The notes under the pieces are model-generated. The model saw nothing but the letters and a program-made list of their open reading frames with translations, was not told the DNA's origin and made no database searches. A stretch of 53,782 bases of DNA, from positions 1-53,782 of the IMG/VR virus record IMGVR_UViG_3300033149_004295. One strand, given 5' to 3'. Numbering within the stretch: position 1 is the stretch's first letter; each line of letters begins with the position of its first letter. Positions 12,130-30,778 of the stretch are shown here, piece by piece. Made by a program: the position numbers and the translations under genes. Source of the stretch: a virus.

Positions 12130-12426
12130 TTAAGTAGTGAAAAAAACAAGGCTGGTAATAAATTCTCTACTACAATCCTTATCTTTCTTCGAGAGGCATT
12201 TATCTAGTTCAGCTCCTATTTTTCTTGGAGAAACAGCGCGGCGGCCATAGGGACACCAGCAATCTCCCGCTGCCATTTCCTCAGCAGCGGAAATAATCTC
12301 TTCTCTCTTATCATTCGTAATTGTTTCCCAATTCTCTTCTTCAACTGCAAGAAAAAGTTCTCTTAGGTTGTCGATTAACTTGTCTGTTTTATCTACACCA
12401 AGTTTACACAAGCTGATTTCGGCCAT
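12130..12426 (-). CDS. Hypothetical protein (last gene of the minus-strand late operon)
   Basis: 98-aa ORF, co-directional with upstream genes. Confidence 0.5.
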   Translation of the reverse strand: MAEISLCKLGVDKTDKLIDNLRELFLAVEEENWETITNDKREEIISAAEEMAAGDCWCPYGRRAVSPRKIGAELDKCLSKKDKDCSREFITSLVFFTT

Positions 12427-12441
12427 TGAGCATAACCCTCC

Positions 12442-13128
12442 TTACTTTTTTAGCAAAAACGATATAGCGGCTCCAGCGGCAAGTCCGGTGCCGACTCCAA
12501 CCGCTACCCAGGCCCATTTAGGCAGCGTAATGCCGAAGAATGTCCATGTATCCTTATCTTCCTCCGGCGGCGTGGGCGGCGTAGGTGGAGTTGGAGGCGT
12601 TGGCGGCGAAGGCGGTTCTTCCTCACCGCATACTATATTAAGGGTACTGTAAGTCTCCGGGCCTACAATACCGTCTTTAAGTCCAAGGTTTTTGTCAGCT
12701 TGAAACAGTAACACAAAAGCCTCCGTCTTAGCGTCGTAAATATCGTTCTCGATAAGCCGGCTAAAGCAAGCCTGCGGTGACGGAACTTCTGCAAGGTTTA
12801 TATTAAGTTTTCTTTGCACTTCTTCGACTATGCTGCCGGCTGATCCTCTCGACAGGATCGGCCCGTTGGGGTCCATACCCAGAGCCGCGTAAGTTTCCGG
12901 GCCAACTATTCCGTCTTTATACTGTAAACCTATTTTATCCTGGAATAGCAGCACAAAAGCCTCGGTGCGCGGACCGAACAAACCGTCTGCGCTGAGTATT
13001 GGCACGCACAGCTCCGAATCTGAAGCGAAGTAGGCGTTTAACTGTTCCTTGACTACCCTAACGGCGTTGTGTACGGTGCCTTTTTTCAGTATAGGGCACG
13101 TTTTTATATACTTTTCAGGCAGGGCCAT
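12442..13128 (-). CDS. Membrane-anchored protein with two PG_binding_1-type peptidoglycan-binding repeats
   Basis: The motif GLFGPRTEAFVLLFQ...DGIVGPETY occurs twice. A PPSPPTPPTPPTPPTPP linker and a C-terminal TM helix (WAWVAVGVGTGLAAGAAISFLL) follow. Confidence 0.75.
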   Translation of the reverse strand: MALPEKYIKTCPILKKGTVHNAVRVVKEQLNAYFASDSELCVPILSADGLFGPRTEAFVLLFQDKIGLQYKDGIVGPETYAALGMDPNGPILSRGSAGSIVEEVQRKLNINLAEVPSPQACFSRLIENDIYDAKTEAFVLLFQADKNLGLKDGIVGPETYSTLNIVCGEEEPPSPPTPPTPPTPPTPPEEDKDTWTFFGITLPKWAWVAVGVGTGLAAGAAISFLLKK

Positions 13129-13146
13129 TATGAACCCTCCTTTAAA

Positions 13147-13554
13147 TTATCTCTTGCATAAATCAATTAATATTAGGTCAATAATTTCAATACCAGCAGG
13201 TGTTTCTTCTTCTTTTAGTTTGTTGGCGAAGCTTGAACCGAATGAATCAGCCACGTCGAAAAGAAACTTGTCTTTTTCCTTTTGTTCTTTTTTGTTTTTA
13301 ATGCTGCCTAAATATGTTGAAAATTTTTTATCGGTAAGTGATCCATAGCATTTTAACGGCTTCTTTTCTTCGTCCTTACCGTCGAATATGGCGAGGTTTT
13401 CGCCATTGCATTTACATAGCGTCAGGTAGCCTTCAACATCTCGGCCAGATACAGGTTCTCGTAGACAGCTACAAGAAACTTTCTTTGGCATTGCGTCAAT
13501 GTCCGCTACCTTCAGCAGTACATCCATAACCGAGGTAAATTCCATTTGCGGCAT
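13147..13554 (-). CDS. Hypothetical protein
   Basis: 135-aa ORF in the operon; Cys-rich N-terminal half. Confidence 0.5.
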   Translation of the reverse strand: MPQMEFTSVMDVLLKVADIDAMPKKVSCSCLREPVSGRDVEGYLTLCKCNGENLAIFDGKDEEKKPLKCYGSLTDKKFSTYLGSIKNKKEQKEKDKFLFDVADSFGSSFANKLKEEETPAGIEIIDLILIDLCKR

Positions 13555-13568
13555 ATTAATACCTCCCG

Positions 13569-14171
13569 CTATTGTTTAAGTAAATAAATTGTACCTAGTA
13601 AAGCGGCAGCAATTGCTATCCATAATAAAATTTTGTTTTTCTCAATGCCAGGTACACTCGTATTAATAATATTATTTGTGTGGTATGCAACCTTCTGCGC
13701 GTATTCTTCCGGAGGGCTTACCGTCCACAGGTGTGCTATATCAACGAGCCTGTCCGCCGATCCAACATTCTCCATTAGCCAGTAGTATCGCCAATGTCCG
13801 TGATTTTTGTCATATTTTCCGCAATCCGGGTTAGGGCACTCGGGGTACACATAGCCTGCAAGCCTCTCAAAGTGAGCATGCACGCCTTGCTCCCAGGAGT
13901 CAAACCTTTGTCCCGCTCCCGGAGTGCCTATAACGTCCAGTCCGGCGGGGTTATGCCACTCAGGTTGAGCAGTACCGGTAAACAATAAAAAATTAGTTTC
14001 GTGTACCATCTGCCCTGCCGCTATGTCGTGCCTTATGTTAAATTTCCTGCCGAATTTGACGTAGTATTCTCCAAGCCTCGGCGCATCCGGGTTTCTGGTC
14101 GCCACGTAGCTGTCTATTTGCTCGGCTTTTACTCCTGAAGTACCTATAAGGGACGTATATATATCAACCAC
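13569..14171 (-). CDS. Glucosaminidase-family (LytD/FlgJ-like) peptidoglycan hydrolase with a C-terminal TM anchor
   Basis: AAGQMVHETNFLLF...NPAGL... resembles the glucosaminidase core. C-terminal helix LLWIAIAAALLGTIYLL. Confidence 0.6.
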   Translation of the reverse strand: MVDIYTSLIGTSGVKAEQIDSYVATRNPDAPRLGEYYVKFGRKFNIRHDIAAGQMVHETNFLLFTGTAQPEWHNPAGLDVIGTPGAGQRFDSWEQGVHAHFERLAGYVYPECPNPDCGKYDKNHGHWRYYWLMENVGSADRLVDIAHLWTVSPPEEYAQKVAYHTNNIINTSVPGIEKNKILLWIAIAAALLGTIYLLKQ

Positions 14172-14183
14172 GTTAAATCATCC

Positions 14184-15188
14184 TCAATACCTGTAATTGC
14201 CGGTGAGCACGTCTGTTATAAATCGACCGTATATTGCAGGATCTACATTCTTGTTGGCATAGAAATAATATCCTCCCTTTTTGATTACAAAGCTGGAGAA
14301 AATTTTCGGGTAGACATATTCATCTTCTGATACGTAATAGTTCGGAGTAAGTTCCGGAGGTATTACTCCTGGAAGGACTAGACTTCTTTCGTATATAAAA
14401 CTAGGGTCAATGTCGTGAGTGTCGAAATGCGCGCCTTCCCCTATTATGAAGCCGGGCGCGAGTTCTTCAATGTCTAAGTATTCGCCGAATACTATAGCAA
14501 AGGACTTGGGGTTTCCGAATATGGGCAGCGTCCCGTATGGCACGTCGCCGTAATAAAAGGGCCAGTCGGTGTAGTCAATCCACACACCGCCGCGACTTAT
14601 GAAGTTTGCTAGGTCTACTAAATCGTTTAAACCGATTGGGCCGGCGGCGGGGAGGACCTCACCGCCCATGTTAAGCACGTAGTTACCTTCCCGGAAATTC
14701 GGTAGTCCTCTTACCACAGGCTCAATTATAGCCAGTAATTCGTCACGTACAGTTGTTGAAACCGACCGGACGGGCGACACGTTTCTTGGGTATAAAGGAA
14801 TTACTGCTCTACCCGGAATTAGCCGCTCTACGAGGATACTTCTTGAAGTAGATCTAGTATTTCCGTCATCATCCTCAACCGTAAGTGTTATGGCATAAGT
14901 GCCTTCTTCCTGGTACGAATGGGTTACCACTTGTCCCGATAATTGCGTGCCGTCCCCCATATCCCAGGTGTATCTCCTAATTGAGCCGTCCGGATCATAG
15001 GAACTTGACGCGTCAAAAGTCAATTCTTCCATTTCCTCTACCGGAGGCGTGGGACTAATAGAAAATTGGGGCACGGGCGGCTTGCCTCTACCCGGGATGC
15101 CTATGTCTCCTTTTAAATATTTATACAGCAGGTACGAAGCACCCACACCTGCGGATACAATGGCTACATTTCTCCAGTTTACGGCCAT
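14184..15188 (-). CDS. N-terminally anchored PKD-domain protein
   Basis: N-terminal TM helix VAIVSAGVGASYLLY. FDASSSYDPDGSIRRYTWDMGDGT...HSY...GTYAITLTVEDDDG is a canonical PKD domain. Confidence 0.75.
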   Translation of the reverse strand: MAVNWRNVAIVSAGVGASYLLYKYLKGDIGIPGRGKPPVPQFSISPTPPVEEMEELTFDASSSYDPDGSIRRYTWDMGDGTQLSGQVVTHSYQEEGTYAITLTVEDDDGNTRSTSRSILVERLIPGRAVIPLYPRNVSPVRSVSTTVRDELLAIIEPVVRGLPNFREGNYVLNMGGEVLPAAGPIGLNDLVDLANFISRGGVWIDYTDWPFYYGDVPYGTLPIFGNPKSFAIVFGEYLDIEELAPGFIIGEGAHFDTHDIDPSFIYERSLVLPGVIPPELTPNYYVSEDEYVYPKIFSSFVIKKGGYYFYANKNVDPAIYGRFITDVLTGNYRY

Positions 15189-15223
15189 ATTTAACCACTT
15201 CCTTGGTCTTTATTTCGCCGCCC

Positions 15224-15436
15224 TTAAAGTGAGTCAGAGTTATTATTCTGATTCTTAACCGCTTCCTTGTCAACGATTGCTTCGCCGATTATATAAGCAA
15301 CAATAGGCAAGACAACAGCAAGCATTGACTCTACATCAAGCTCGATACCAGTATAGTAATTAATAAACATTACCAAAGCTGTTAATATAGCGGCCCAAAA
15401 CTTGCGGGATTTCAGCGGATGTTTACGCTCTTCCAT
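15224..15436 (-). CDS. Putative holin (two TM helices)
   Basis: 70 aa with two hydrophobic segments (FWAAILTALVMFINYY and MLAVVLPIVAYIIGEAIV) and a charged C-terminus. Confidence 0.5.
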   Translation of the reverse strand: MEERKHPLKSRKFWAAILTALVMFINYYTGIELDVESMLAVVLPIVAYIIGEAIVDKEAVKNQNNNSDSL

Positions 15437-15480
15437 TAGATGGACCCCCCCTTTCCATATTTAGCAATTTTACTCAACTC

Positions 15481-15813
15481 TTATCTACTGGCCACTATCT
15501 CAATTTCGTTATCATTGGCTGCTGTCGTCTCTACTTTTATATATCTATACGCATTGTCATAGCCACGATGTTCTTCTCCTGCGCTAGTTAGACTTATTGT
15601 ATCTGTTTTCCTGTATTCAATTCCGTCTTTAGAGCCTGATACGATAAAATCAGCAGCTCCGGAACTTTTTACCCAAACCTCTACTTTAATTCTGCCACCC
15701 CATTCTCCTGTATCTAGTATTACGGTAAGAGGTGCTCCGGTTGATGAGTCACTAGCACTTATTGGCTTGAAAAACTGCGCTATATTTTTGAGGCCAATAC
15801 CCACTTTTATCAC
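15481..15813 (-). CDS. Hypothetical beta-rich protein
   Basis: 110-aa ORF between the adhesin-like genes and the holin-like gene. Confidence 0.5.
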   Translation of the reverse strand: MIKVGIGLKNIAQFFKPISASDSSTGAPLTVILDTGEWGGRIKVEVWVKSSGAADFIVSGSKDGIEYRKTDTISLTSAGEEHRGYDNAYRYIKVETTAANDNEIEIVASR

Positions 15814-15818: not shown

Positions 15819-17384
15819 TTATTCAACTGACCGTCCTTCTGGCGGCCAGGTACCGACTACTGTTTCTATTTCAAGTACCCAAGGTCCGACGTGTCCTTTA
15901 GAGGGTAAGTCCGACTGTCCACACCGGACGTAGCCAGTGCTCAGGATTTCAGATACATCTCTGACCCGTGATGTACCTGCACCTGGTAAATCTGATTTAT
16001 CTGAGAAAGGTATGATACCAGTAGAAGGTAAATTTATACCAGTATTTACACTTCCTGTTGAGTACAGGTCTGAAATCTGATGCACTATTCCGGATGAGCG
16101 TAGCCACATGCTATTTAAGTGTCCGCGCGAAGGAAGTTCATTGGCTGCTCCACTAATATATCCACCAGACATTAGATCATCTTTACTATAGACACGTGGA
16201 TTTCCGCTACTAGGTAAATCGTCGTAATAACCGTCAACCACACCTTTTGAGGCTAGTTCATTAGCAGCTCCACTCACATAACCCGAGGCTGTTAAGGCGT
16301 TCTCACTAGGTACACGCGGCTGACCCACAGAAGGTAGGTCATTGTGTTCTAATATATATCCTCTGCTAGACAAGTCGGCTTCTCCAGATATGCGTGGGGT
16401 ACCTGTAGACGGAATATCCCGGCGTGAAACAGCACCTTGGCCGGAGAAGTCATCGGCGACACGGGTTCCTCGAATGATTCCTACGGATTCTAGGTCACTA
16501 ATCTGTCGAACAGTTCCGATTGAAAAAATATCTTTCCTTGATACAGCTCCGAGCGAGTTTAAATCATTATCCGCCGCTATAGCACCTACTACTATTCCGG
16601 TAGAAGGTAGGTCCAACCAGGCATATCCAATTACTCTGCCTGTCGAAAAAAGCTCATTATTTTCCTTTGAAGCGTCAGGATCGTAGTAGGTCACAAGAAG
16701 TTGTGGACGCATTACCGCTTCGGGCCATTCTCTGGAAGTATAGACAGAATGTGCTTGAATCTGCTCATCAACGGCTAAAATCATTATACCGTTATTTGCC
16801 CTGGTCTGTTTATACCAACCGAGAAACAGGCCGGTAATATCGAGGTCAACGACTTCACTAACAAGGGCCTGGTTTTCGGCAACCGGGTAACGTCCGGGCT
16901 GGTTTGCCCAGGTGACGCCAAGTTCTTCCCACGAGCCAAGGAGGTTGTATGCTGCTATTTCTCCCACCTTTGTTATTCTGGCGAATAGTCTTAACTTAGC
17001 AGAAATAATGTCCAAATCAGTTCGCAAAGTCGAAATATCAAATTGTAGTAGTGCTCGACTCAATTTTGAATTGTATCTACCAATAACTAGGTCAACCACA
17101 TCCCCGTAGTTGATAGTGGGTTTGGCATCTGTAATAAAGGCGTCAGCCACCGGTGTAATGACTACGGTTGTCTTTGGACGTTCAAGTATTTCGTATTGAA
17201 CTATTAAGCTGCCATGAATAGCAATATGTCCAACTGAAGGTAGATTGCCATGTTGGTTTACTTTACCTGTAGAGTTTAGGTCAGAAGCTCCTATTGGCAA
17301 TACTTGGTAAGTCAGTTCAAGACTACCGGTTAGGTTTATTGGTAATACTTGGTAAATCAGTTCAAGGCTACCGGTAACACTCAT
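15819..17384 (-). CDS. DNRLRE-domain protein with tandem ~20-aa (D)LPS(T/S/R)G repeats; fibre or adhesin-like
   Basis: DAFITDAKPTINYGD...SRALLQFDIS...ISAKLRLF...WEELGVTWANQPG matches the DNRLRE domain pattern. At least 10 LPSxG-type repeats follow. Confidence 0.65.
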   Translation of the reverse strand: MSVTGSLELIYQVLPINLTGSLELTYQVLPIGASDLNSTGKVNQHGNLPSVGHIAIHGSLIVQYEILERPKTTVVITPVADAFITDAKPTINYGDVVDLVIGRYNSKLSRALLQFDISTLRTDLDIISAKLRLFARITKVGEIAAYNLLGSWEELGVTWANQPGRYPVAENQALVSEVVDLDITGLFLGWYKQTRANNGIMILAVDEQIQAHSVYTSREWPEAVMRPQLLVTYYDPDASKENNELFSTGRVIGYAWLDLPSTGIVVGAIAADNDLNSLGAVSRKDIFSIGTVRQISDLESVGIIRGTRVADDFSGQGAVSRRDIPSTGTPRISGEADLSSRGYILEHNDLPSVGQPRVPSENALTASGYVSGAANELASKGVVDGYYDDLPSSGNPRVYSKDDLMSGGYISGAANELPSRGHLNSMWLRSSGIVHQISDLYSTGSVNTGINLPSTGIIPFSDKSDLPGAGTSRVRDVSEILSTGYVRCGQSDLPSKGHVGPWVLEIETVVGTWPPEGRSVE

Positions 17385-17400: not shown

Positions 17401-19005
17401 CTAAGATGAAGATGGTGTACCTGTGGCATAAAGGGTGAAGTTCTTAATACCTTCGTTTGGTTCTCCTGTGCTAGTTTTAATAGGTGCATTTACACGGACG
17501 TATACAGTACCAATTTTTTCGTTCGGAGCAAAAGTCCCATTTAACGGCAGGGGATCTTCGGCTACAAAAGGATCAGAAGTGGCAGAAATTTCTATTGTAT
17601 CATCGGACGGTAGGTTCTGTCTGGTAACAGATACATTCGTTACAGCATTATTGATGCCGTTATAGAGGTCAACTCTAACAGGACTGATAGAAGTTCCGGC
17701 AAGGAGTTGACCAAGGTCTTTCTTACTTATCATAGCCCCTTGTGCGTTAGTAAAGATAAGTGCTTGTGTGGTATTGATAGCCAAAGCGTAAGACATTCCT
17801 GCAGCGATGTTTGTTATACCCCCTAAGTAATCTTCTCCGCCAGGCCCTTTTACCTGAACCAGCGTGGTCCTGCCAGTTGTTGTACCGTCGCCGAGCTGAC
17901 CGTAGCCGTTGTATCCACAGGCCCATACCGTGCCATCAGATTTTAGAGCAAGAGAGAAAGTTTTATAAGTATCATCTGCGTGTGCAGTACCTGCAGCGAT
18001 GGCGATAATATCAGTCAAGTAACCTTCTCCGCCAGGCCCTTTTACCTGAACTGGCGTGACCCTGCCAGTTGTTGTACCGTCGCCGAGCTGACCGTAGCCG
18101 TTGTATCCACAGGCCCACACTGTGCCATCAGATTTTAGAGCTAAAGAATGGCAACCACCCGCAGCAATAGCAATAATATCAGTCAAGTAACCTTCTCCAC
18201 CTGGTCCTTTCATCTGCTTCGGTAAGGTCGTCCAGACTATTCCACTGCCGACACCAAGCTGACCGTAGTTGTGTCCCCAACCCCACACCGTACCGTCAGA
18301 TTTTAGAGCAAGGGAATAGCGTTCACCCGCAGCGATGACGATAACATCAGTCAAGTAACCTTCTCCACCTGGCCCCTTTACCTGAACCGGTAAGTGCCTT
18401 TCCTCTGTTGTACTGTCGCCGAGCTGACCGTAATCGTTACCTCCCCAGGCCAACACCGTACCATCAGACTTCAGAGCAAGAGAGAAACTTTCCCATGGAG
18501 TTGAAGTGCTTGAGTCTGTCCCTGCGGCAATAGCAATAATATCAGTCAAGTAATCTTTTCCATCCGGCCTTTTTACCTGAACCGGTGTAGTTCTATTGAT
18601 CGTTGTACCGTTACCGAGCTGACCACAGCCGTTATATCCCCAGGCCCACACCGTACCATCAGATTTTAGAGCTAAAGAATGATAACCACCAGCAGCAATT
18701 GCAATAATATCAGTCAAGTAACCTTCTCCACCTGGCCCCTTTACCTGAACCGGTGTGAACTTGCCAGTTGTTGTACCGTCGCCGAGCTGACCGTAATCGT
18801 TACCTCCCCAGGCCCACACCGTACCATCAGATTTCAGAGCTAAAGAATGGTTACCACCCGCAGCGATGGCGACAACGTCAGTCAAGTAACCTTCTCCGTC
18901 TGGCCCTTTTACCGGAACCGGCGTAGTTTTATTACCCGTTGTATCGTCGCCAAGCTGACCATAATCATTACGACCCCACGCTAAAAATCTAATAAGTGTA
19001 GACAT
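17401..19005 (-). CDS. RCC1-repeat beta-propeller protein with a C-terminal beta-rich domain; candidate receptor-binding protein
   Basis: Seven or more repeats of [24 protein letters not shown]...[22 protein letters not shown]. The DNA repeats are near-identical. Confidence 0.8.
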
Positions 19006-20085: not shown

Positions 20086-20099
20086 TATTAATCACTCCT

Positions 20100-21530: not shown

Positions 21531-21710
21531 CTATTCTTCCTTTTCTACTATACATCTTCCGAAGGTTCCCTCTCGTGGCTCTTTGACAGTCATCAGCCAA
21601 CACTGAGAAATACCAGCCCACGATCCCTGCTTTGTTCTGTATTCCCTTTTTTTGTTATCCCTATCGACTAGGAGAAGCACCTGGTGAGTTTTGCATTTAT
21701 ATTTCTCCAT
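21531..21710 (-). CDS. Hypothetical small protein
   Basis: The start was moved to the internal ATG at 21710, which overlaps the upstream TAA by one base (TAATG coupling). The track ORF extends to 21833. Confidence 0.4.
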   Translation of the reverse strand: MEKYKCKTHQVLLLVDRDNKKREYRTKQGSWAGISQCWLMTVKEPREGTFGRCIVEKEE

Positions 21711-23502: not shown

Positions 23503-23922
23503 TTATGCTACTTTCGGCCTGGCACCAACAGGTGCATAGGTAAGTCTTACTATATCGCCGTCTGCGACATTAGCATCAAGCGTTATTGTATTCTCATCAA
23601 CTTTGGTTGCAGTAGCACTGGTGGCACTAACACCTGCATCTGTACTGCTCTGTACGCCGAAGTCACTACCACCGCCAGCAGCGGCAATATCTATGTCAGC
23701 ACCGCCGTCGGGCGGATCATTGCCTGCACCGTCAGCTACCCCAACAAAAGTTGTCTGATCTCCCGCAGTTTCAGAATTTAATACATTAAATGAAGTGTGG
23801 CTATGTTCAACACCCAATATTTCGGCAGATATTATCGCGTCAATTTCTGGAGCATAGTCTGGCAGGTCTATATTTTCACCAGCGGTGACAGCACCTGGCA
23901 CCCAAAGAATAGTATGTTTCAT
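23503..23922 (-). CDS. Hypothetical Gly/Ala/Asp-rich protein
   Basis: 139-aa ORF with an AGGAGG RBS upstream of the ATG. Confidence 0.5.
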   Translation of the reverse strand: MKHTILWVPGAVTAGENIDLPDYAPEIDAIISAEILGVEHSHTSFNVLNSETAGDQTTFVGVADGAGNDPPDGGADIDIAAAGGGSDFGVQSSTDAGVSATSATATKVDENTITLDANVADGDIVRLTYAPVGARPKVA

Positions 23923-25083: not shown

Positions 25084-25449
25084 TCAGATTTCAACTACAC
25101 TTACACCTTGACTTTTAGGCTGAATCTGCGGCACCGGCCTTCTAGTTGGTATTGGTGTCCTGTAAGACGTTGGAGTAAGTCCTACTCCGAGCATTTCCGG
25201 CACTTTGGCGGCCATGTACGCTGCGGCACCATTCATAGCACCACGGGCGACATCAGCGCATGTGCCAGTCATTTGGTTAGCTGCCATAAAACCAAACAGT
25301 CCGGCAGCTCCGGCGATCGCGCAATCAGTAAATTGTCCGCCAAACCTTCGCTTTGCCCATGCACTAATAAAGCCAGTTCCAGCAGCACCAGCAACGCTAT
25401 AGATCTCGTTAGCCATTGCGAGGCTCACCTCCTTATGAATAGTATACAC
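25084..25449 (-). CDS. Gly/Ala-rich membrane protein (glycine-zipper-like)
   Basis: AGAAGTGFISAW...AIAGAAGLFGFMAAN...GAMNGAAAYMAA hydrophobic Gly/Ala segments. Confidence 0.5.
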   Translation of the reverse strand: MYTIHKEVSLAMANEIYSVAGAAGTGFISAWAKRRFGGQFTDCAIAGAAGLFGFMAANQMTGTCADVARGAMNGAAAYMAAKVPEMLGVGLTPTSYRTPIPTRRPVPQIQPKSQGVSVVEI

Positions 25450-25513: not shown

Positions 25514-25789
25514 TTATATTGTTTTCATGGCAGCTTTATAGGCTATAGACTCTTGTGGTTCAAGCGCAGATGTTTTTAAAATATATGCTCCTATAGCACC
25601 ACCTGTTAGTGCAACTGTTAACGCAAGCAGCAGAGAAGAGAGCGGTATATCTTTTCGCGCGACTGATTCTGAGATAAGCAGAGCACCGGCAGCTACACTT
25701 ACACCGGCAAAATTATTATATGCTGTAAGTGCTGTAGTAGACGGAAGGACAGAAGGTACAACAGGTATAGCAGTAATACCGTTAGCCAT
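25514..25789 (-). CDS. Small membrane protein
   Basis: 91 aa with two hydrophobic segments. Overlaps the upstream gene by 8 nt. Confidence 0.5.
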   Translation of the reverse strand: MANGITAIPVVPSVLPSTTALTAYNNFAGVSVAAGALLISESVARKDIPLSSLLLALTVALTGGAIGAYILKTSALEPQESIAYKAAMKTI

Positions 25790-26612
25790 ATATTATCCCT
25801 CCAATACTTTTGTAGAAGGTATTAAGTGAAGCAAACTTATAAGCCTCGCGTTCCTTATCGAAAGAGATTTTTTCTATGCTGTCAACTTCAATAACATTAA
25901 TATCGTTAAACCTTAAAATTGGCACATAAGGCAAGTTTTCAGTAACAATAAGCTTATCTTCGACTAGCTGGTCCGAGGTTGTTTCTAATACGATATTTCC
26001 TTTTTGCGGGTGGTTCACTGTTACCCAGGCATGTCCTATACCATCAAAATAGCCTATTGTTACAAATACTTCATTGTGAGAAAGCCTGTTTCTGAGTATT
26101 GAAGCAAGAAGTATAGAAGTATCCTCGCAATCCCCAACTCTATCTCTTAATGTCTCGGATGGGTAGGACCAAAAATCGAATGTTTCGTACCTCAGTAGCG
26201 ACGAATTGCCGTATCTGGCACCGCCGGAAAAGAGGGACATTATTAACGACGCTAGTCCTTGTCCAATAAAAGTATCTCTAACAATAAGGCCAATATTTTT
26301 TATACTGGCCCCACTGACAAATTCCCTTACCATTCCGGCCAATCCAGTACCTATTATTGTGCTTGTTATAAGCGGAGAAATTTTACTTCCGGAGTTAAAT
26401 GCCTCTTTATAGTGTCTGTCAGCAATTTCCGGCTGCCCCGGCGGGTATATTATATTCTCAGTAACCCATTTCCATGAGCTTTTTATAAATTCGTTTCTAT
26501 TAGCCGGCATTTGCGAAGCTATTTCCATTACACCTATATTGTTTGGTCTTATAAATTCGCGTATATCTATCTTTTCGTCTCCGAAGCGTTTTTTAACCAC
26601 ATAAGAAATCAT
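25782..26612 (-). CDS. Transglutaminase-like cysteine protease-fold protein
   Basis: RVGDCEDTSILLASILR...GHAWVTV supplies the Cys and His of the transglutaminase-core triad. Confidence 0.65.
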   Translation of the reverse strand: MISYVVKKRFGDEKIDIREFIRPNNIGVMEIASQMPANRNEFIKSSWKWVTENIIYPPGQPEIADRHYKEAFNSGSKISPLITSTIIGTGLAGMVREFVSGASIKNIGLIVRDTFIGQGLASLIMSLFSGGARYGNSSLLRYETFDFWSYPSETLRDRVGDCEDTSILLASILRNRLSHNEVFVTIGYFDGIGHAWVTVNHPQKGNIVLETTSDQLVEDKLIVTENLPYVPILRFNDINVIEVDSIEKISFDKEREAYKFASLNTFYKSIGGIIYG

Positions 26613-26617: not shown

Positions 26618-27085
26618 TCAGCCACCCGTTTTTCTAAGGATAGCATATATTCCGGCAATTAATAGTCCTAGCACTATAAAACTAGCAGCTTCCGGATATT
26701 TTGCCATGAATGTCTCCGTAACTTTATATAACTTCCAAAAAAGAAGAAATGCTAAGACGGCAATTCCAAGCCCTATAACAATATAGAATACTCTAAGCGT
26801 CCATGGATTACCATGTTTCCATCTAACGCACCAAGTGGCAGTGCTTTTATCAGTATAGACAAGTCTATCATTTCCGGGCCATTTTTTAACGCCGGTTGCT
26901 TCAAGAATACTATTAAGGCTATTAGCTTGATTTTCAAACCCTGGAAAAACCGTGCTAAATTCAAGCCTAAGTTCTACAAGATCCGAAGCCTCCAAAGTCT
27001 CGTCAATTTGTCTAAAAGAATTATAAGAATTTAAAAGGGATTCAGACCTGTTTCCTTCAAGAAGCAACTCGTATTTATACGGCAT
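26618..27085 (-). CDS. Membrane protein (two C-terminal TM helices)
   Basis: VFYIVIGLGIAVLAFLLFW and ASFIVLGLLIAGIYAIL. Confidence 0.5.
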   Translation of the reverse strand: MPYKYELLLEGNRSESLLNSYNSFRQIDETLEASDLVELRLEFSTVFPGFENQANSLNSILEATGVKKWPGNDRLVYTDKSTATWCVRWKHGNPWTLRVFYIVIGLGIAVLAFLLFWKLYKVTETFMAKYPEAASFIVLGLLIAGIYAILRKTGG

Positions 27086-27097: not shown

Positions 27098-27529
27098 TTA
27101 AGCTACTACGCTATATACCACGTCAATAATCTCTGCCCTTCCCGGTTCAAGAGTATAGAATTGGTGCTGTATAACCTCTAAGTCGTCTTTTGTAAGCCTT
27201 TGGCCTGTTTCCGGTACCATAACTACCCATTTGACATTAAATAACTTTCCAGCCGGATACATGGTTCGATCCCCGTTGGCCCATAATTCAGAATATAGCT
27301 CTAGGGTTACTTGCTTTCCTGGATTCACCGTAATTTCGTTCCATTCAAGTCCGGAAGGTGCAGGATTAGCACCGCTATATCCTGTAGTAGGATAGAAGAA
27401 ACTTACAGGTAATCCGCTGATAGGGTCGAAAATTGAACCTCTTACTCTAAAAGTACCAGCCATATCACCAATATTAGCAACAGTAACTGTAGCTTTTACA
27501 AACTGTCCGGCATTAACAACAACAGCCAT
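27098..27529 (-). CDS. Beta-sandwich (CARDB-like) protein; N-terminal domain paralogous to that of 27751-28716
   Basis: VKATVTVANIGDMAGTFRVRG resembles RAIIEVENTGGEPVDFSVSG in the neighbouring protein. Confidence 0.45.
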   Translation of the reverse strand: MAVVVNAGQFVKATVTVANIGDMAGTFRVRGSIFDPISGLPVSFFYPTTGYSGANPAPSGLEWNEITVNPGKQVTLELYSELWANGDRTMYPAGKLFNVKWVVMVPETGQRLTKDDLEVIQHQFYTLEPGRAEIIDVVYSVVA

Positions 27530-27546
27530 CTTTATACCTCCTTAAA

Positions 27547-27735
27547 TTAACTCATAACTGAATAGTTTACACTTACTATACTAGCTTGAGGCACTTCTTT
27601 CGGTGGCGCGGCAAACGCTCTTGAAGCAAGAAGTAATGCACCGCCTCCGCCGATAATTACTATCAACGGCAGAAATAGACCACGACGCTCTTCTCTTTTT
27701 TCTTCATTTGTTCTTTTTTTAGGCATAAGTTCCAC
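27547..27735 (-). CDS. Small single-pass membrane protein
   Basis: LFLPLIVIIGGGGALLLASRAFA transmembrane helix; 62 aa. Confidence 0.45.
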   Translation of the reverse strand: MELMPKKRTNEEKREERRGLFLPLIVIIGGGGALLLASRAFAAPPKEVPQASIVSVNYSVMS

Positions 27736-27750
27736 TCCTAATTACTTATT

Positions 27751-28716
27751 TTAGCAGTTATTACATATAAAATATCCAACGCCATAGAACTGTAACCCAT
27801 TATTTAATGCGTTAAAGGTCTCACATCCGGCTATTCCATCTACTCTAATACCGGCAAGTTTCTGAAACTCACGCACTGCTGCTTCAGTTTCCGGACCATA
27901 TATTCCATCTACGTCTAAGCCCGCGCCTATATATATGTTTAACGCGTTCTGTAACGCTTTTGTAACTGACATGCCTGTATACGGATGTCCTGCGCTTAAC
28001 TCCGGACAATAATCAAAAATATATTCAATTCTTCTTGTCGGTAGTGCTTCAAATGTTTTATACGGGCCGACGCTTGAACATCCATACTGGTTACACGCTG
28101 AAACTGCTACTGTATATGGAGAACCTGGAGCTATATCTGAAATGACGCATCTCGTAGAATATACCGTAGCAATTATACCTTCACCTTTATGGTGTATCTT
28201 ATAGTACTCAGCACTAGGCACAGAATCCCAACCGATTGTTATTTCTAATAGGTTTGCGTCAATTAAGTAAGGTGCTCCAGGTGTGGGAGGCACTTCTCCA
28301 GGAGGCGGCGGCGGGGGGGTAATAGGACCTGTAGGCGCAACTATAGACCTTAAAGTTTTATATTCTTCGCTTGCACCGTTCACGGAAAGAGTAAATACAA
28401 CATCCAGGTAGTTGCATCCTAGTTCTTCCTTAGAGGCAATTGGACCGGAATACATTGCGAATCTCATCGACTCGCCGGGTTGAAGCTTGCTTCCCGTTTC
28501 TCTGGCGTGCGAATAGTTGTCAACTCTACGATCTCTATCCCACCAAAAACGTCCCTGCACGACAGTAGTGCCGCTGCATGCTATAATACCGCTGACGCTA
28601 AAGTCTACGGGTTCGCCGCCGGTATTTTCGACTTCTATAATTGCTCGCACCACGTTGTTGTAACCTGGACTTACCCGGTTTGCGCTTATAACCTTTAAAC
28701 TCACATTATCCAGCAT
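27751..28716 (-). CDS. CARDB-like, FN3 and PG_binding_1 multidomain protein
   Basis: Poly-Pro linker. The FN3-like part is ITIGWDSVPSAEYYKIH...YTVAVSACN. C-terminal LDVDGIYGPETEAAVREFQ...VDGIAGCETFNAL is a peptidoglycan-binding domain. Confidence 0.65.
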   Translation of the reverse strand: MLDNVSLKVISANRVSPGYNNVVRAIIEVENTGGEPVDFSVSGIIACSGTTVVQGRFWWDRDRRVDNYSHARETGSKLQPGESMRFAMYSGPIASKEELGCNYLDVVFTLSVNGASEEYKTLRSIVAPTGPITPPPPPPGEVPPTPGAPYLIDANLLEITIGWDSVPSAEYYKIHHKGEGIIATVYSTRCVISDIAPGSPYTVAVSACNQYGCSSVGPYKTFEALPTRRIEYIFDYCPELSAGHPYTGMSVTKALQNALNIYIGAGLDVDGIYGPETEAAVREFQKLAGIRVDGIAGCETFNALNNGLQFYGVGYFICNNC

Positions 28717-28818
28717 AGGTTATAACCTCCAAGAAAATGAATTACATACCTGCATATTTGAATTTATTCAACTTTACTATAATAATACACTATTTAATGC
28801 GAATTGTATAGGGTTCAG

Positions 28819-29256
28819 CTAATTATTTTGATTGCCGTATATCTTGCGCAAGTAACTGTCAAACTTCTGTAAAAACATGACAACTTGTTTTTTGCACCAC
28901 GGTTTATGTTTTTTCAAGACCGCGCCGTGTTCAGGCAAATTTTCCTTTATTCTTCTTAAAAGCAAGTCTAAATCATCAGGGGATATAAGTTTTCTAAAAT
29001 TAGCGGCCTGGATTGCATAGTCTCTTATGACGTGTTCTGCATATCTTTGAAAAATCATGTTTTCTATAAATTCTACGATATTTTTGTCTTTAATTGCCGC
29101 CTCGTCTATCTCCTGTGGAGTTAAGTTTCTTAAAGCAGAAGAAAGGTTTTCCGCCACATAGCGAATCACCTTTCTTTTCATTAAGCTGTACTTCAGCGCG
29201 TTTTGAAAATCTTGCGAATACATTTTTGCTTTAATCTTATCTAAGACATTTTTCAT
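28819..29256 (-). CDS. Hypothetical protein
   Basis: 145-aa ORF overlapping the upstream gene by 4 nt. Confidence 0.5.
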   Translation of the reverse strand: MKNVLDKIKAKMYSQDFQNALKYSLMKRKVIRYVAENLSSALRNLTPQEIDEAAIKDKNIVEFIENMIFQRYAEHVIRDYAIQAANFRKLISPDDLDLLLRRIKENLPEHGAVLKKHKPWCKKQVVMFLQKFDSYLRKIYGNQNN

Positions 29257-30290
29257 TGTAGATCATCTTCCGTTTGCTTAGATTGACTTATATTTCGTTG
29301 ATTATTGCCGTCTACACCACTATGCGCTACTTCTTGCTGCACGCCGCAATAGGGGCATATAGGTTTGTCTGTGTACCTACTTAAAGTAAAAATGTTGTTA
29401 CAATTTCCGCACTGATAAGATACTCCTTGACTGTTACCATATTGGCTACCACTTTGGGTATTACTACTTATGTTATTACTGCTTCCCGTACTTCTAAATG
29501 CTTCTACAAAAGCACCGAGAAGGTCGGAAAGCTCGCCTCCAAAACTATTTGCCGCGCTCTTGATAGTGTCAAGTCTTTCTTTTTCAAGCCTAATCTGTTC
29601 TCTCGCCTTTTCGCGTTCCCTTTCGTCCTCCAGCAGCATTTTCAATATCTCGGCTTTAATTTGGCCGGACATCGCCTGCTCTTTTATCAAGTTTTCACGG
29701 TTGTTACTAATTCCAAGCCTTTCTTTAATTTTTTCGCTGAACGAAATTCTGTCGAGCAGTTCTTCTTCTACGCTCTTTTTACTGTTTGTGTTGCCGCCTA
29801 AAGCATTTTGCAGTTGATTTCTAAGCATTTGCGCTCCTATTTCTTGCAGCGTTTGTGTAAACGGGTCCGCGCTTTTTTCCGAAGATTTTTCCCCGAGTTT
29901 CTCGACAAGTTCCCGTATTTGCGCCTGCTGTTCCTTTAAATACCCGGTGAGTTCCGTGCGGAGCAGCTCGGCCTGCGTTTTCTGAACCTCTTGTCTGGCC
30001 TCTTTAACTTCTTCTTCACTCTTAACCCTGGCGTTGCGTTCGTACTCAGCCAATCCTTTATACACCTCGCTCACCTCTTTTAATCCTGAAGTTATAGAGT
30101 GCAGGTCAAGACCGGCATCTTTCAATAGCGATATTGGGTTACTGTTCTGTTCGCTGCCGGCAGCTTTCAGTATGGTGTCCATCTCCACTTTTTCCTTAAT
30201 GGCTCTTTTTAAGTCATCCATGCTTACTTTTTCTTCATCAAAAACATTGCTTTTTGCTTTTGATACGAGTTGGCTTATAGGTTTTCTCAC
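29253..30290 (-). CDS. Coiled-coil protein with a C-terminal zinc ribbon
   Basis: Long E/K/Q-rich heptad-like region. C-terminal CGNC...CPYCG. Confidence 0.5.
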   Translation of the reverse strand: MRKPISQLVSKAKSNVFDEEKVSMDDLKRAIKEKVEMDTILKAAGSEQNSNPISLLKDAGLDLHSITSGLKEVSEVYKGLAEYERNARVKSEEEVKEARQEVQKTQAELLRTELTGYLKEQQAQIRELVEKLGEKSSEKSADPFTQTLQEIGAQMLRNQLQNALGGNTNSKKSVEEELLDRISFSEKIKERLGISNNRENLIKEQAMSGQIKAEILKMLLEDEREREKAREQIRLEKERLDTIKSAANSFGGELSDLLGAFVEAFRSTGSSNNISSNTQSGSQYGNSQGVSYQCGNCNNIFTLSRYTDKPICPYCGVQQEVAHSGVDGNNQRNISQSKQTEDDLQ

Positions 30291-30778
30291 TGTTGCTCCC
30301 CTCCTTCACTAATGAATTGCTGTACTTCCGGCCTGTTCCTAAACAGCACGTCAAACCCTAACTCCGGATGCTCCTGGTAAAAAGCAAGTATGCAATCTGT
30401 TATCCACTCCTCGAAGGTTGTCTCCCCGTAAGATTCAGGAAACTTGGCCCTGGCTAGCTCGTACAGAACCCACAATTCCGGATCAAGGTCCACTTTTAAA
30501 AACTTGCTTTCTCCGCGTATTGGAGATGTCTTTCTGCCGCTGCTTTTTGGCGTCTTGTCTAACGCTTTCGGTTTTACATACCCTTCTTTTATGGCCTTTT
30601 TTATGTTCTGGCCCTGTACAAGCACTTCCCCGGTTTCCTCGTCTATTAGTCCTACTGCCTTGTGTTCGGCATCCGGTTCATCTTGTTTGGCGTCCCAAAT
30701 GTGCTTCATTAACTGCCCGTAACCTTCGCGGTTTCCAGTCTCTTTAAATACTTCGCCGCATGAACACTGCCAAATCAA
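30287..30778 (-). CDS. Hypothetical protein (first gene of the minus-strand operon)
   Basis: TTG start behind a TAAGGAGGGG RBS (reverse complement of 30785-30794); 163 aa. Confidence 0.55.
   Translation of the reverse strand: MIWQCSCGEVFKETGNREGYGQLMKHIWDAKQDEPDAEHKAVGLIDEETGEVLVQGQNIKKAIKEGYVKPKALDKTPKSSGRKTSPIRGESKFLKVDLDPELWVLYELARAKFPESYGETTFEEWITDCILAFYQEHPELGFDVLFRNRPEVQQFISEGGEQQ

What the first reader, a model, noticed from the sequence alone, without database searches (positions are those of the whole stretch)
12130..30778. No recognisable large terminase, portal or tape-measure gene in a complete 53.7-kb genome, and a late operon dominated by membrane and adhesin-domain proteins
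The molecule closes on itself, so no genes are missing. Yet the largest non-helicase ORFs are the 534-aa RCC1, 521-aa DNRLRE, 483-aa antirepressor and 422-aa UDG proteins. None looks like a TerL, a portal or a tape measure. The only Walker-A proteins are the helicase and the 279-aa ATPase at 3418-4257.

The 18.6-kb minus-strand operon encodes at least eight predicted membrane proteins: 12442, 13569, 14184, 15224, 21710, 25084, 25514, 26618 and 27547. It also carries beta-rich proteins of 353 and 304 aa and several spike or adhesin folds.

This gene content is more reminiscent of internal-membrane, non-tailed viruses than of Caudoviricetes. The alternative is a very divergent virion module.

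One counter-signal is that 20100-20594 weakly resembles a P2 gpH-type fibre N-terminal domain.
Basis: inference. Interest (0 to 1): 0.7.

Follow-up and report, generated by a model that had tools for sequence, protein, structure and literature searches.

The report
Tailless jelly-roll-capsid phage without packaging motor
This closed 53.7-kb genome is most likely a temperate bacterial virus that builds a tailless shell from a previously unrecognised double jelly-roll capsid protein, and it has neither the head, portal and terminase genes of tailed phages nor the DNA-packaging ATPase expected in jelly-roll viruses.

Summary
The window closes on itself through a 114-bp exact terminal repeat (53,668 bp unique). 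PHROGs and Pfam scans of the selected ORF set across the genome find no terminase, portal, HK97 capsid, tape measure, sheath or baseplate. A six-frame scan finds only two real P-loop proteins: an XPD/DinG-like helicase and a 279-aa AAA_24/Sak4-type recombination ATPase.

The 353-aa protein (23959-25020, minus strand) has no sequence match in PHROGs, Pfam, NCBIfam, PDB or 50,697 phage genomes. Its AlphaFold2 model is very confident (pLDDT 96.6). Its best structural match in both PDB and BFVD is the STIV major capsid protein, followed by capsid proteins of PM2, PR772, PBCV-1, phiCjT23 and FLiP. The neighbouring 304-aa protein has two beta-sandwich domains and resembles STIV capsid and turret proteins.

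The family has 226 representatives at the 50%-identity level, mostly on 35-65-kb contigs or integrated in Bacillota and Dehalococcoidia genomes. Only one relative appears in IMG/VR. None has a conserved ATPase near the capsid gene.

The RCC1/CBM96 "adhesin" block is a host-recognition cassette shared with large Bacillota myoviruses.

Verdict: a new lineage of large, temperate, tailless double jelly-roll viruses. The internal membrane and the packaging mechanism remain inferred.

The parts
1..114 (.). Terminal direct repeat, identical to 53669-53782. It marks a closed (circular or terminally redundant) 53,668-bp genome.
30287..30778 (-). First gene of the late operon, 163 aa, with a Cys/His-rich N-terminus. 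Function unknown.
   Evidence: No family hit. Position.
29253..30290 (-). 345-aa coiled-coil protein with a C-terminal zinc ribbon, conserved in relatives. Candidate assembly, scaffold or DNA-binding factor (inferred).
   Evidence: Weak Zn-ribbon hits. Homologues in L009 and L016.
28819..29256 (-). 145-aa protein, weakly conserved in the IMG/VR relative. Function unknown.
27751..28716 (-). 321-aa protein with an FN3-like middle and a C-terminal PG_binding_1 domain. Candidate virion-associated cell-wall-binding protein (inferred).
   Evidence: PG_binding_1 E 2e-14 and fn3 E 0.003. Endolysin-type PHROG hits cover only the C-terminal domain.
27547..27735 (-). 62-aa single-pass membrane protein.
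   Evidence: Hydropathy 2.28.
27098..27529 (-). 143-aa protein with a weak Fn3-like (fn3_5) Pfam hit. Fold not modelled.
   Evidence: fn3_5 E 0.036. Weak homologue in the IMG/VR relative.
26618..27085 (-). 155-aa protein with two C-terminal transmembrane helices.
25782..26612 (-). 276-aa transglutaminase-like (papain-fold Cys/His) protein with two moderately hydrophobic segments, conserved in relatives. Candidate virion-associated wall-degrading or maturation enzyme (inferred).
   Evidence: DUF553/Transglut_core hits. Homologues in L008, L010, L012 and L016.
25514..25789 (-). 91-aa membrane protein.
25084..25449 (-). 121-aa Ala/Gly-rich, weakly hydrophobic protein. Possible membrane protein.
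   Evidence: score 1.21, marginal
23959..25020 (-). Double jelly-roll protein, 353 aa: the proposed major capsid protein.
   Evidence: AF2 pLDDT 96.6, pTM 0.92. Foldseek PDB top hit is STIV MCP 2bbd_A (E 1.2e-5, prob 1.0), followed by PM2, PR772, PBCV-1, phiCjT23, SGIV and FLiP MCPs. BFVD top hits are an unnamed entry (UPI001E6B8B39) and the STIV1 coat protein. 139 homologues in the word-index search and 226 representatives at the 50% level. It is the most conserved protein of the module.
23503..23922 (-). 139-aa protein always placed between the two jelly-roll genes. Candidate penton or minor capsid protein (inferred; fold not tested).
   Evidence: Conserved position and sequence in L003, L004, L005, L009 and L013. 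No family hit.
22499..23413 (-). 304-aa protein with two beta-sandwich (jelly-roll-like) domains. Candidate vertex or turret base, or a second capsomer protein.
   Evidence: AF2 pLDDT 92.7. Foldseek hits include STIV MCP (E 1.6e-5), DUF2961/GH172, STIV turret-assembly entries 4ind and 3j31_P, and tandem CUB domains, all with low TM-scores of 0.2-0.28. It lies one or two small genes downstream of the MCP gene in the relatives where both genes were detected. No profile similarity to the MCP.
21710..22495 (-). 261-aa protein with an N-terminal hydrophobic anchor. The rest is uncharacterised.
   Evidence: Hydropathy 1.43. Homologue in the IMG/VR relative.
20591..21469 (-). 292-aa Kelch beta-propeller. 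Candidate spike or receptor-binding protein.
   Evidence: Kelch_1 E 1.3e-48. phrog_16120 'virion structural protein' E 1e-20.
19008..20594 (-). Three small genes (164, 152 and 208 aa) of the host-recognition cassette shared with large Bacillota myoviruses.
   Evidence: The 152-aa protein matches phrog_11814 (E 1e-49) and is 58-60% identical to SP-15 gp59 and Jenst gp48. The 208-aa protein matches phrog_11178. In those phages the cassette sits after the baseplate genes. The 164-aa protein matches only weakly.
17401..19005 (-). 534-aa RCC1 beta-propeller protein of the same cassette.
   Evidence: RCC1 E 1e-83. About 30% identity to the Jenst RCC1 protein.
15819..17384 (-). 521-aa CBM96 (DNRLRE-type) carbohydrate-binding protein of the same cassette.
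   Evidence: CBM96 E 4.5e-17. phrog_11333 E 1e-29. About 30% identity to Jenst gp52.
15481..15813 (-). 110-aa protein, 64% identical to a gene in the Bacillota MAG relative L005. Function unknown.
12130..15436 (-). Distal lysis and cell-wall block: holin (15224-15436), PKD protein (14184-15188), glucosaminidase with a C-terminal TM (13569-14171), a 135-aa ORF, a PG_binding_1 protein with a C-terminal TM (12442-13128) and a 98-aa ORF.
   Evidence: phrog_9987 holin E 1e-6 and phrog_8124 endolysin E 5e-10. PKD_4 E 3.5e-24, Glucosaminidase E 1.2e-6 and PG_binding_1 E 3.4e-17.
31086..31784 (+). 232-aa gene transcribed divergently from the late operon and conserved with it in relatives. Candidate regulator (inferred).
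   Evidence: Homologues in L009 and L016 at 32-47% identity, plus a partial match within a 509-aa protein of L003/L004. No family hit.
3418..4257 (+). 279-aa P-loop ATPase of the AAA_24/Sak4 type, sitting in a recombination module. Not a packaging ATPase.
   Evidence: phrog_124 Sak4-like E 2e-9. AAA_24 E 3.4e-8, above the Pfam cut-off. Flanked by a Cas4-type exonuclease, DUF932 and an ERCC4-HhH nuclease. Close homologues share a contig length with only one of the MCP-bearing contigs.
51971..53782 (+). 5' part of the 701-aa SF2 helicase (XPD/DinG-like), which continues to position 408 across the junction. The only other P-loop protein.

Best explanation
The window is the complete genome of a temperate, tailless virus whose shell is built from a previously unrecognised double jelly-roll (DJR) major capsid protein. 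That makes it a new lineage of the DJR (PRD1-adenovirus, Bamfordvirae-type) viruses. The host is probably a spore-forming member of Bacillota.

**Shown**
- No Caudoviricetes morphogenesis genes exist.
- The 353-aa protein is a high-confidence DJR fold, closest to the STIV coat protein.
- It belongs to a conserved triad of 353-aa, 139-aa and 304-aa genes found in related 35-65-kb elements, some of them integrated in host chromosomes.
- A lysis cassette, two tyrosine recombinases and an antirepressor are present.

**Inferred mechanism**
- The minus-strand late operon makes trimeric DJR capsomers.
- The 304-aa two-jelly-roll protein and/or the 139-aa protein form the vertex structures.
- The small membrane proteins (62, 155, 91 and 121 aa, and the anchored 261- and 276-aa proteins) populate an internal lipid vesicle, as in tectiviruses, PM2 and STIV.
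- The vertices carry a receptor-binding cassette (Kelch, the 164/152/208-aa trio, RCC1, CBM96) exchanged with large Bacillota myoviruses.
- The transglutaminase-like and PG-binding proteins help cross the Gram-positive wall.
- Holin, glucosaminidase and amidase release the progeny.

**Open point**
No FtsK/HerA-type or terminase ATPase is encoded. The 54-kb genome must therefore be enclosed in some other way. Candidates are assembly around condensed DNA, an unrecognised viral factor such as the 345-aa zinc-ribbon coiled-coil protein, or a host translocase.
For: - **Closed genome:**
- **No tailed-phage genes:** no TerL, portal, HK97, tape measure or baseplate in PHROGs, Pfam or NCBIfam.
- **Only two P-loops in six frames:**
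- **MCP model:** pLDDT 96.6.
- **PDB matches:** STIV MCP at E 1.2e-5 and prob 1.0, followed by PM2, PR772, PBCV-1, phiCjT23, SGIV and FLiP MCPs.
- **BFVD matches:** the top two are an unnamed entry and the STIV1 coat protein.
- **304-aa model:** pLDDT 92.7, with hits to STIV MCP and STIV turret-assembly entries.
- **Family size:** 139 homologues and 226 representatives, nearly all full length at 320-450 aa, with no functional annotation.
- **Conserved gene order** in relatives.
- **Integration:** one relative lies beside a tRNA-synthetase-family gene, a TatD DNase, an MFS transporter and a DUF348-G5-3D gene. Another lies inside a 471-kb Dehalococcoidia contig.
- **Small TM proteins** next to the MCP gene, here and in relatives.
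- **Lysis, integrase and antirepressor genes:**
- **Receptor cassette** collinear with SP-15 and Jenst genes that follow the baseplate.
Against: - The hallmark packaging ATPase of DJR viruses is absent from the whole genome. It is also absent from +-10 kb around the MCP gene in 12 relatives (Pfam columns).
- Yutin et al. 2018 report the ATPase in every STIV-group genome.
- The DJR fold also occurs in cellular proteins. GH172/DUF2961, PHM and PNGase appear in the same hit lists with similar TM-scores of 0.3-0.38.
- Foldseek TM-scores to the viral MCPs are modest.
- No penton protein has been identified by fold.
- No particle, lipid or proteomic data exist.
- At 54 kb the genome is several times larger than those of the prokaryotic DJR viruses described in the papers read here (about 10-17 kb).
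Confidence: 0.7

Rival explanations
1. It is an integrative mobile element or satellite that does not build its own capsid. The 353-aa and 304-aa jelly-roll proteins would be cellular-type DJR or beta-sandwich proteins (GH172/DUF2961-like glycosidases or lectins) used at the cell surface or in a non-capsid structure. Transfer would depend on a helper phage or on vesicles.
For: - Cellular DJR proteins (GH172, PHM, PNGase) score about as well as viral MCPs.
- There is no packaging ATPase.
- Many late proteins carry carbohydrate- or wall-binding domains.
- Only one relative is present among 2.9 million IMG/VR contigs.
Against: - The top-ranked structural match in PDB is the STIV coat protein, and the top two BFVD matches are an unnamed entry and the STIV1 coat protein.
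- The protein has no strong hydrophobic segment of the kind a signal peptide or membrane anchor would give.
- It is nearly always a stand-alone protein of 320-450 aa.
- It sits in a 27-gene co-directional operon that ends in a holin and endolysin block.
- The genome was recovered as a closed 53.7-kb molecule of about the same size as related contigs.
- A satellite would not be expected to carry its own lysis and receptor-binding genes (general knowledge).
Confidence: 0.14
2. It is a virus, but not an icosahedral one with an internal membrane. It could be a pleomorphic or enveloped particle in which the jelly-roll proteins are surface spikes or matrix proteins. That would explain why no packaging motor is needed.
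For: - No ATPase is encoded.
- Membrane proteins are abundant.
- Vesicle-like viruses such as plasmaviruses and pleolipoviruses are not known to use a capsid-packaging motor (own knowledge).
Against: - The closest folds are capsomer proteins of icosahedral viruses.
- Lysis genes argue against release by budding.
- Known pleomorphic viruses have genomes of 7-17 kb (own knowledge).
Confidence: 0.08
3. It is an extremely divergent tailed phage whose HK97 capsid, portal and terminase are beyond the reach of profile methods.
For: - Part of the late operon (the 152- and 208-aa proteins, RCC1, CBM96) is shared with myoviruses, where it follows the baseplate genes.
- Most late ORFs have no annotation.
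Against: - No unassigned ORF is large enough for a TerL, which is usually about 400 aa or more (own knowledge), and none has a P-loop.
- Every ORF of 300 aa or more is otherwise assigned, except the 345-aa coiled-coil protein.
- The two most conserved structural proteins fold as jelly rolls, not as HK97.
- There is no sheath, tube, tape measure or baseplate hit.
Confidence: 0.04

Closest known systems
Turriviridae / 'STIV group' of DJR viruses (STIV1, STIV2, TKV4, MVV and bacterial proviruses of Yutin et al. 2018, PMC5894146)
   Same: - The STIV coat protein is the top PDB structural match of the 353-aa protein and is among the top two BFVD matches.
- The 304-aa protein also hits STIV turret-assembly entries.
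- Both have tyrosine integrases and can exist as proviruses.
- STIV also has a circular dsDNA genome (own knowledge).
   Different: - There is no sequence similarity, even with a profile against PDB sequences.
- All STIV-group genomes encode a STIV-like packaging ATPase, and this genome has none.
- The genome here is about three times larger than that of STIV (about 17 kb, own knowledge).
- The hosts here are Bacillota and Dehalococcoidia.
Tectiviridae of Gram-positive bacteria (Bam35, GIL01, AP50, Toil)
   Same: Both infect Gram-positive hosts, are temperate, and have a DJR capsid gene surrounded by many small membrane-protein genes and wall-degrading enzymes. The tectivirus side is general knowledge; see also PMC6356626.
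   Different: - Tectiviruses have linear genomes of about 15 kb with inverted terminal repeats, a protein-primed PolB and a P9-type packaging ATPase.
- This genome is closed, 53.7 kb, has no PolB and no such ATPase.
- No PHROG or Pfam hit links it to tectivirus proteins.
[quoted passage not shown]
   Same: SSIP-1 is a precedent for a large tailless membrane-containing phage. Its circular dsDNA genome of about 44 kb is from my own knowledge. The review PMC6356626 confirms it is membrane-containing and shares hardly any sequence similarity with GenBank.
   Different: - SSIP-1 is reported to have two MCP types, as do P23-77 and IN93.
- It infects a halophile of the Bacteroidota (own knowledge).
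- tblastn of the 353-aa protein found nothing in the 50,697 phage records. I did not check that SSIP-1 is among them.
DJR viruses without a packaging ATPase: the 'Odin group' and FLiP
   Same: They combine a DJR capsid protein with no recognisable packaging ATPase (PMC5894146).
   Different: Those are described as small genomes, and FLiP is ssDNA. Here 54 kb of DNA has to be enclosed.
ANME-1 viruses 'Chaacviridae' and 'Ixchelviridae'
   Same: Their DJR capsid proteins have no sequence similarity to known ones and were recognised only by AlphaFold2 modelling.
   Different: They are archaeal viruses. Chaacviruses have linear genomes of about 10-11 kb with a protein-primed PolB.
Large Bacillota myoviruses (Bacillus phages SP-15 and G, Brevibacillus phage Jenst, Listeria phage LIS04)
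   Same: The block of 152-aa, 208-aa, RCC1 and CBM96 genes is collinear. Identity is 51-60% for the 152-aa protein in these four phages, and about 22-30% for the other three genes in Jenst (weaker or undetected in SP-15).
   Different: In those phages the cassette follows baseplate genes in genomes of 126-498 kb. Nothing else in the window matches them.

Membership tests
Caudoviricetes (tailed phages) | HK97-fold major capsid protein | tested here: not met
   No PHROG, Pfam or NCBIfam capsid hit. The two most conserved structural proteins model as jelly rolls. The remaining small ORFs were not folded.
Caudoviricetes (tailed phages) | Large terminase (P-loop ATPase plus nuclease) and portal protein | tested here: not met
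   No profile hits. Only two P-loops exist in six frames, in the Sak4-like protein and the helicase. No unassigned ORF of 300 aa or more remains except a coiled-coil protein.
Caudoviricetes (tailed phages) | Tail genes (tape measure, tube, sheath, baseplate) | tested here: not met
   None were hit. Only a distal fibre-type cassette is shared with myoviruses.
Double jelly-roll viruses (Bamfordvirae type) | Major capsid protein with two vertical jelly rolls | tested here: met
   AF2 pLDDT 96.6. Foldseek hits to STIV, PM2, PR772, PBCV-1, phiCjT23, SGIV and FLiP MCPs. Trimer formation and strand-by-strand topology were not tested.
Double jelly-roll viruses (Bamfordvirae type) | FtsK/HerA-superfamily (A32/P9/B204-type) genome-packaging ATPase | tested here: not met
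   No such family was hit in any scanned ORF. The P-loop scan is negative apart from the Sak4-like protein and the helicase. Nothing conserved lies near the MCP gene in relatives.
Double jelly-roll viruses (Bamfordvirae type) | Single jelly-roll penton protein | not tested
   The 139-aa protein (23503-23922) is a candidate by size and conserved position. The 304-aa two-sandwich protein is an alternative vertex protein.
Double jelly-roll viruses (Bamfordvirae type) | Internal lipid membrane | not testable with these tools
   Only indirect evidence exists: at least six proteins with strong TM segments in the late operon, and small TM proteins beside the MCP gene in relatives.
Turriviridae / STIV group | MCP and ATPase detectably similar in sequence to those of STIV | tested here: not met
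   A profile of 65 family members finds no PDB sequence at E <= 10. No ATPase is present. All STIV-group genomes have one.
Tectiviridae | [quoted passage not shown] | tested here: not met
   The ends form a direct repeat, giving a closed molecule. No PolB family was hit. The only polymerase-related signal is a UDG-domain protein with a weak match to phrog_17.
Sak4 / AAA_24 recombination ATPases (for 3418-4257) | AAA_24 domain above the Pfam threshold, encoded with a recombination exonuclease | tested here: met
   AAA_24 scores 34 bits against a cut-off of 27. phrog_124 E 2e-9, with a Cas4-type exonuclease two genes upstream.
TIGR-Tas RNA-guided systems (side observation, 48099-51100) | Nop-domain Tas protein next to an array of two alternating ~10-nt repeats with short spacers, 36-nt unit | tested here: met
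   NF052498 TIGR_Tas_endo E 1.2e-57, 195 bits against a cut-off of 100. The array has a 36-bp period, with 30 unit matches against 0 expected. The architecture matches PMC12045711.

The most novel reading that the evidence does not exclude
This is the first complete genome recognised from a lineage, at family level or higher, of large (about 42-54 kb) temperate double jelly-roll viruses of Bacillota and Dehalococcoidia. These viruses would enclose a long genome with no virus-encoded terminase or FtsK/HerA-type packaging ATPase. That implies a packaging route not described for icosahedral dsDNA viruses of this size: capsid and membrane assembly around condensed DNA, or capture of a host translocase such as SpoIIIE/FtsK. 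The lineage is almost invisible to current virus-detection pipelines.
Probability: 0.4. Interest if true: 0.85.

Novelty: new variant of a known kind. Interest (0 to 1): 0.72.

Why it matters
Tailless DJR phages are thought to be badly under-sampled. Those described in the papers read here have genomes of roughly 10-17 kb, and nearly all carry a hallmark packaging ATPase.

- **Size range.** A 42-54-kb temperate lineage in Bacillota and Dehalococcoidia would extend the known size range. Its capsid protein is invisible to PHROGs, Pfam, NCBIfam and PDB sequence searches.
- **Hidden proviruses.** Only one relative is present among 2.9 million IMG/VR contigs. A whole group of proviruses in subsurface and anaerobic bacteria is therefore being missed.
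- **Packaging.** It poses a concrete, testable question: how is 54 kb of DNA enclosed without a terminase or an FtsK/HerA ATPase?
- **Gene exchange.** It documents exchange of a receptor-binding cassette between two virus realms, DJR viruses and myoviruses.
- **Practical use.** The 353-aa family gives a new marker profile for virus discovery.

Tried and rejected
1. **The 279-aa ATPase as the packaging motor: rejected.** It is AAA_24/Sak4 and sits among an exonuclease, DUF932 and an ERCC4 nuclease. Among its 39 homologues, only one contig length (47,372) coincides with an MCP-bearing contig, besides the IMG/VR relative. A PDB sequence search gave nothing useful.
2. **The 1.7-kb 36-bp-periodic array at 49.3-51.1 kb as a packaging or partition signal: rejected.** The adjacent 325-aa protein is a TIGR-Tas protein, and the array has the published TIGR architecture.
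3. **Nucleotide similarity to known phages.** Megablast of 12000-31000 found no match.
4. **tblastn against 50,697 phage genomes.** The MCP and the 164-aa protein found no match.
5. **Profile searches of the MCP and 304-aa families against PDB sequences.** Nothing meaningful was found.
6. **hhalign of the MCP family against the 304-aa family.** They are unrelated, so they are not recent paralogues.
7. **Other scans.** There are no tRNAs and no Rfam families at gathering score. The sigma-70 promoter and terminator scan of the operon was not informative.
8. **Recoded stop codons or fragmented genes: rejected.** The late region is tightly packed with standard-code ORFs.
9. **Literature.** Searches for a described large DJR phage of Bacillota or Dehalococcoidia found none in the held library.

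Full report
**1. The observation**

The window's first and last 114 bases are identical. The molecule is therefore closed, with 53,668 unique bases, and a 701-aa helicase ORF runs across the junction.

Apart from the helicase, the largest ORFs are 534, 521, 483 and 422 aa.

I scanned a selected set of non-overlapping ORFs from across the genome.
- PHROGs covered the set except the helicase and a few ORFs judged spurious.
- Pfam covered it, including the helicase but not the 149-aa methyltransferase.
- NCBIfam covered ten unassigned proteins.

No terminase, portal, HK97 capsid, scaffold protease, tape measure, tube, sheath or baseplate family was hit.

A six-frame Walker-A scan found genuine P-loops only in the helicase and in the 279-aa protein at 3418-4257.

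The interval 12130-30778 holds 27 co-directional minus-strand ORFs. Gaps run from -8 to 102 nt, plus one of 240 nt. The named domains are real: Kelch, RCC1, CBM96 (the DNRLRE type), PKD, FN3 and PG_binding_1.

Two corrections apply.
- Hydropathy supports six clear membrane proteins and three marginal ones. It gives nothing for 14184-15188.
- The suggested P2 gpH-like resemblance of 20100-20594 was not reproduced.

**2. What the two beta-rich proteins are**

The 353-aa protein (23959-25020) matches nothing in PHROGs, Pfam, NCBIfam, PDB sequences or 50,697 phage genomes. It nevertheless has 139 homologues in the 5.8-billion-protein collection. In a full HMMER scan it has 226 representatives at 50% identity. 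Nearly all are full length, 320-450 aa, and none carries a functional annotation.

With a 65-sequence alignment, AlphaFold2 gave pLDDT 96.6 and pTM 0.92. The model is an almost all-beta protein with two blocks of strands.

Foldseek against PDB ranked the STIV major capsid protein first (E 1.2e-5, probability 1.0). Next came the capsid proteins of phiCjT23, PM2, PR772 (PRD1-like), PBCV-1, an iridovirus and FLiP. The list also held the known cellular double jelly-roll proteins: PHM, GH172/DUF2961 and PNGase.

Against BFVD, the two best hits were an unnamed entry and the STIV1 coat protein.

TM-scores are modest, at 0.3-0.38. I therefore treat the fold class as established, and the specific affinity to STIV only as 'closest'.

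The 304-aa protein (22499-23413) has 26 homologues. It models at pLDDT 92.7 as two beta-sandwich domains joined by helices. Its hits include tandem CUB domains, the STIV MCP, DUF2961/GH172 and STIV turret-assembly entries. TM-scores are low, which suggests a different arrangement of the two domains. It is not a detectable paralogue of the 353-aa protein.

**3. Relatives and context**

The gene order 353 aa, then about 130-139 aa, then about 303 aa, is kept in the relatives where these genes were detected. The 353-aa protein is the best conserved, at 38-58% identity.

Other recurrent genes are:
- the transglutaminase-like protein;
- the 345-aa coiled-coil zinc-ribbon protein;
- the 261-aa anchored protein;
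- the divergently transcribed 232-aa gene.

Relatives lie on contigs of 35-65 kb.
- One is integrated beside a tRNA-synthetase-family gene, a TatD DNase, an MFS transporter and a DUF348-G5-3D gene.
- One lies inside a 471-kb Dehalococcoidia contig.
- The MAG assignments are mostly Bacillota and Dehalococcoidia.

Only one relative exists among 2.9 million IMG/VR contigs. It is a 42.4-kb contig that is syntenic with the window, including the helicase, exonuclease and Sak4-like genes.

Even distant members of the capsid family sit in neighbourhoods almost devoid of Pfam hits, with PG_binding_1, SLT or PKD proteins nearby. Small membrane proteins lie just upstream of the capsid gene.

**4. The adhesin block**

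The 152-aa protein (19627-20085) matches phrog_11814 at E 1e-49. It is 51-60% identical to proteins of Bacillus phages SP-15 and G, Brevibacillus phage Jenst and Listeria phage LIS04.

In SP-15 the gene follows the baseplate genes and precedes an RCC1 protein; in Jenst it follows virion structural genes and likewise precedes large RCC1 proteins. The window's 152-aa, 208-aa, RCC1 and CBM96 genes are collinear with that cassette. The 164-aa gene matches its SP-15 counterpart only weakly.

I read this as a host-recognition module exchanged between unrelated virion types. It also points to a Bacillota host. Other pointers to the same host are a YyaC-like DUF1256 gene, a 3D-domain gene, and Amidase_3 and PG_binding_1 lysis proteins.

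**5. The missing motor**

The 279-aa ATPase is AAA_24/Sak4. It sits in a recombination module of Cas4-type exonuclease, DUF932 and ERCC4-HhH nuclease.

Its homologues coincide with MCP-bearing contigs only for one contig length and for the IMG/VR relative. This is suggestive rather than conclusive, because that search is limited by its word index.

No conserved P-loop ORF lies within 10 kb of the capsid gene in 12 relatives.

Published surveys state that all STIV-group genomes encode a STIV-like ATPase. They report that only the small Odin-group genomes and ssDNA FLiP lack one. The absence in a 54-kb genome is therefore the most unusual point here, and I cannot explain it mechanistically.

**6. 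Interpretation**

Best explanation (0.70): a temperate, tailless DJR-capsid virus. It probably contains a membrane, and its vertex spikes derive from a myovirus-type fibre cassette. Packaging is by an unknown route that does not use an FtsK/HerA ATPase.

Rivals:
- a non-autonomous element using cellular-type jelly-roll proteins (0.14);
- a pleomorphic or enveloped virion (0.08);
- an unrecognisably divergent tailed phage (0.04).

Precedents exist for DJR capsid proteins found only by structure prediction, namely the ANME-1 viruses. A precedent also exists for a large tailless membrane phage, SSIP-1. I therefore rate this as a new variant of a known kind rather than categorically new.

**7. Side finding**

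The apparently non-coding 1.7 kb at 49343-51100, plus three sites at 48099-48307, is an array of alternating 10-nt repeats. The repeats are GAGAGTACCA and GAGCGAGCCA, separated by 8-nt spacers.

The array flanks a 325-aa gene that matches NCBIfam TIGR_Tas_endo at E 1.2e-57. This is a TIGR-Tas RNA-guided system as described in PMC12045711. Homologous Tas genes with similar arrays occur in other IMG/VR contigs and next to a distant relative of the capsid gene.

Noticed in passing
window 48099-51100 (gene 48368-49345, + strand; arrays 48099-48307 and 49343-51100): This is a TIGR-Tas RNA-guided system. The 325-aa protein matches NCBIfam TIGR_Tas_endo (E 1.2e-57), with no nuclease domain detected, so it looks TasA-like. 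It is flanked by a long array of 36-nt units, roughly 30-48 of them. Each unit has two alternating 10-nt repeats (GAGAGTACCA and GAGCGAGCCA) and two 8-nt spacers. The spacers' targets were not searched.
   Followed up: partly
L023 6400-7800; L025 300-1500; L026 4600-6400; L027 4000-5700; L021 4200-6553: Homologues of the Tas protein in other IMG/VR contigs sit next to 36-bp-periodic arrays with nearly the same repeat cores (GAGCGAGCCA/G and GAGAGAACCA/G). A distant relative of the capsid family (L021) has a 27%-identical Tas homologue beside an array with different repeats.
   Followed up: partly
window 51119-51390: A dense run of about 25 GTAAACC-type heptad or octad repeats lies in three clusters between the TIGR array and the gene upstream of the helicase. 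It may be a set of origin iterons or a regulator or partition binding site.
   Followed up: no
window 34448-35414 (- strand): A second lysis-type pair lies away from the late operon: an Amidase_3 endolysin with a C-terminal TM segment (34448-35122) and a 101-aa TM protein (35109-35414). The genome therefore has two separate wall-hydrolase sets, the other being the glucosaminidase and holin at 13569-15436.
   Followed up: no
window 4916-5992 (+ strand): Two genes are typical of spore-forming Firmicutes: a DUF1256/YyaC-like 'spore protease' (E 9.5e-51) and a secreted 3D-domain protein. They hint at host identity and possibly at interference with sporulation or germination.
   Followed up: no
window 35494-36399 and 45867-46775 (+ strand): There are two tyrosine recombinases. 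One is XerC/D-like with a SAM-like N-domain (E 8.6e-46). The other is divergent (E 3e-10). No attachment site was looked for.
   Followed up: no
L019 1-235: A distant relative of the capsid family (43-kb contig) encodes an Evr1/Alr sulfhydryl oxidase. From my own knowledge, that enzyme is otherwise characteristic of large eukaryotic DJR viruses.
   Followed up: no
L003 1-4300; L010 (contig DAOULY010000016.1, 471 kb): Relatives are integrated in host chromosomes: one next to a tRNA-synthetase-family gene, a TatD DNase, an MFS transporter and a DUF348-G5-3D gene, and one inside a Dehalococcoidia contig. The capsid family therefore spans at least two bacterial phyla. A few hits in Pirellulales and Heimdallarchaeota MAGs are on short contigs and may be binning noise.
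   Followed up: partly
window 36771-36849: A TGCTTGC-type 7/14/21-bp tandem repeat lies inside a 79-aa ORF that would encode a Cys/Leu-rich hydrophobic peptide (CLLLLPCCLLLFACC...). It is unclear whether this is coding or regulatory.
   Followed up: no
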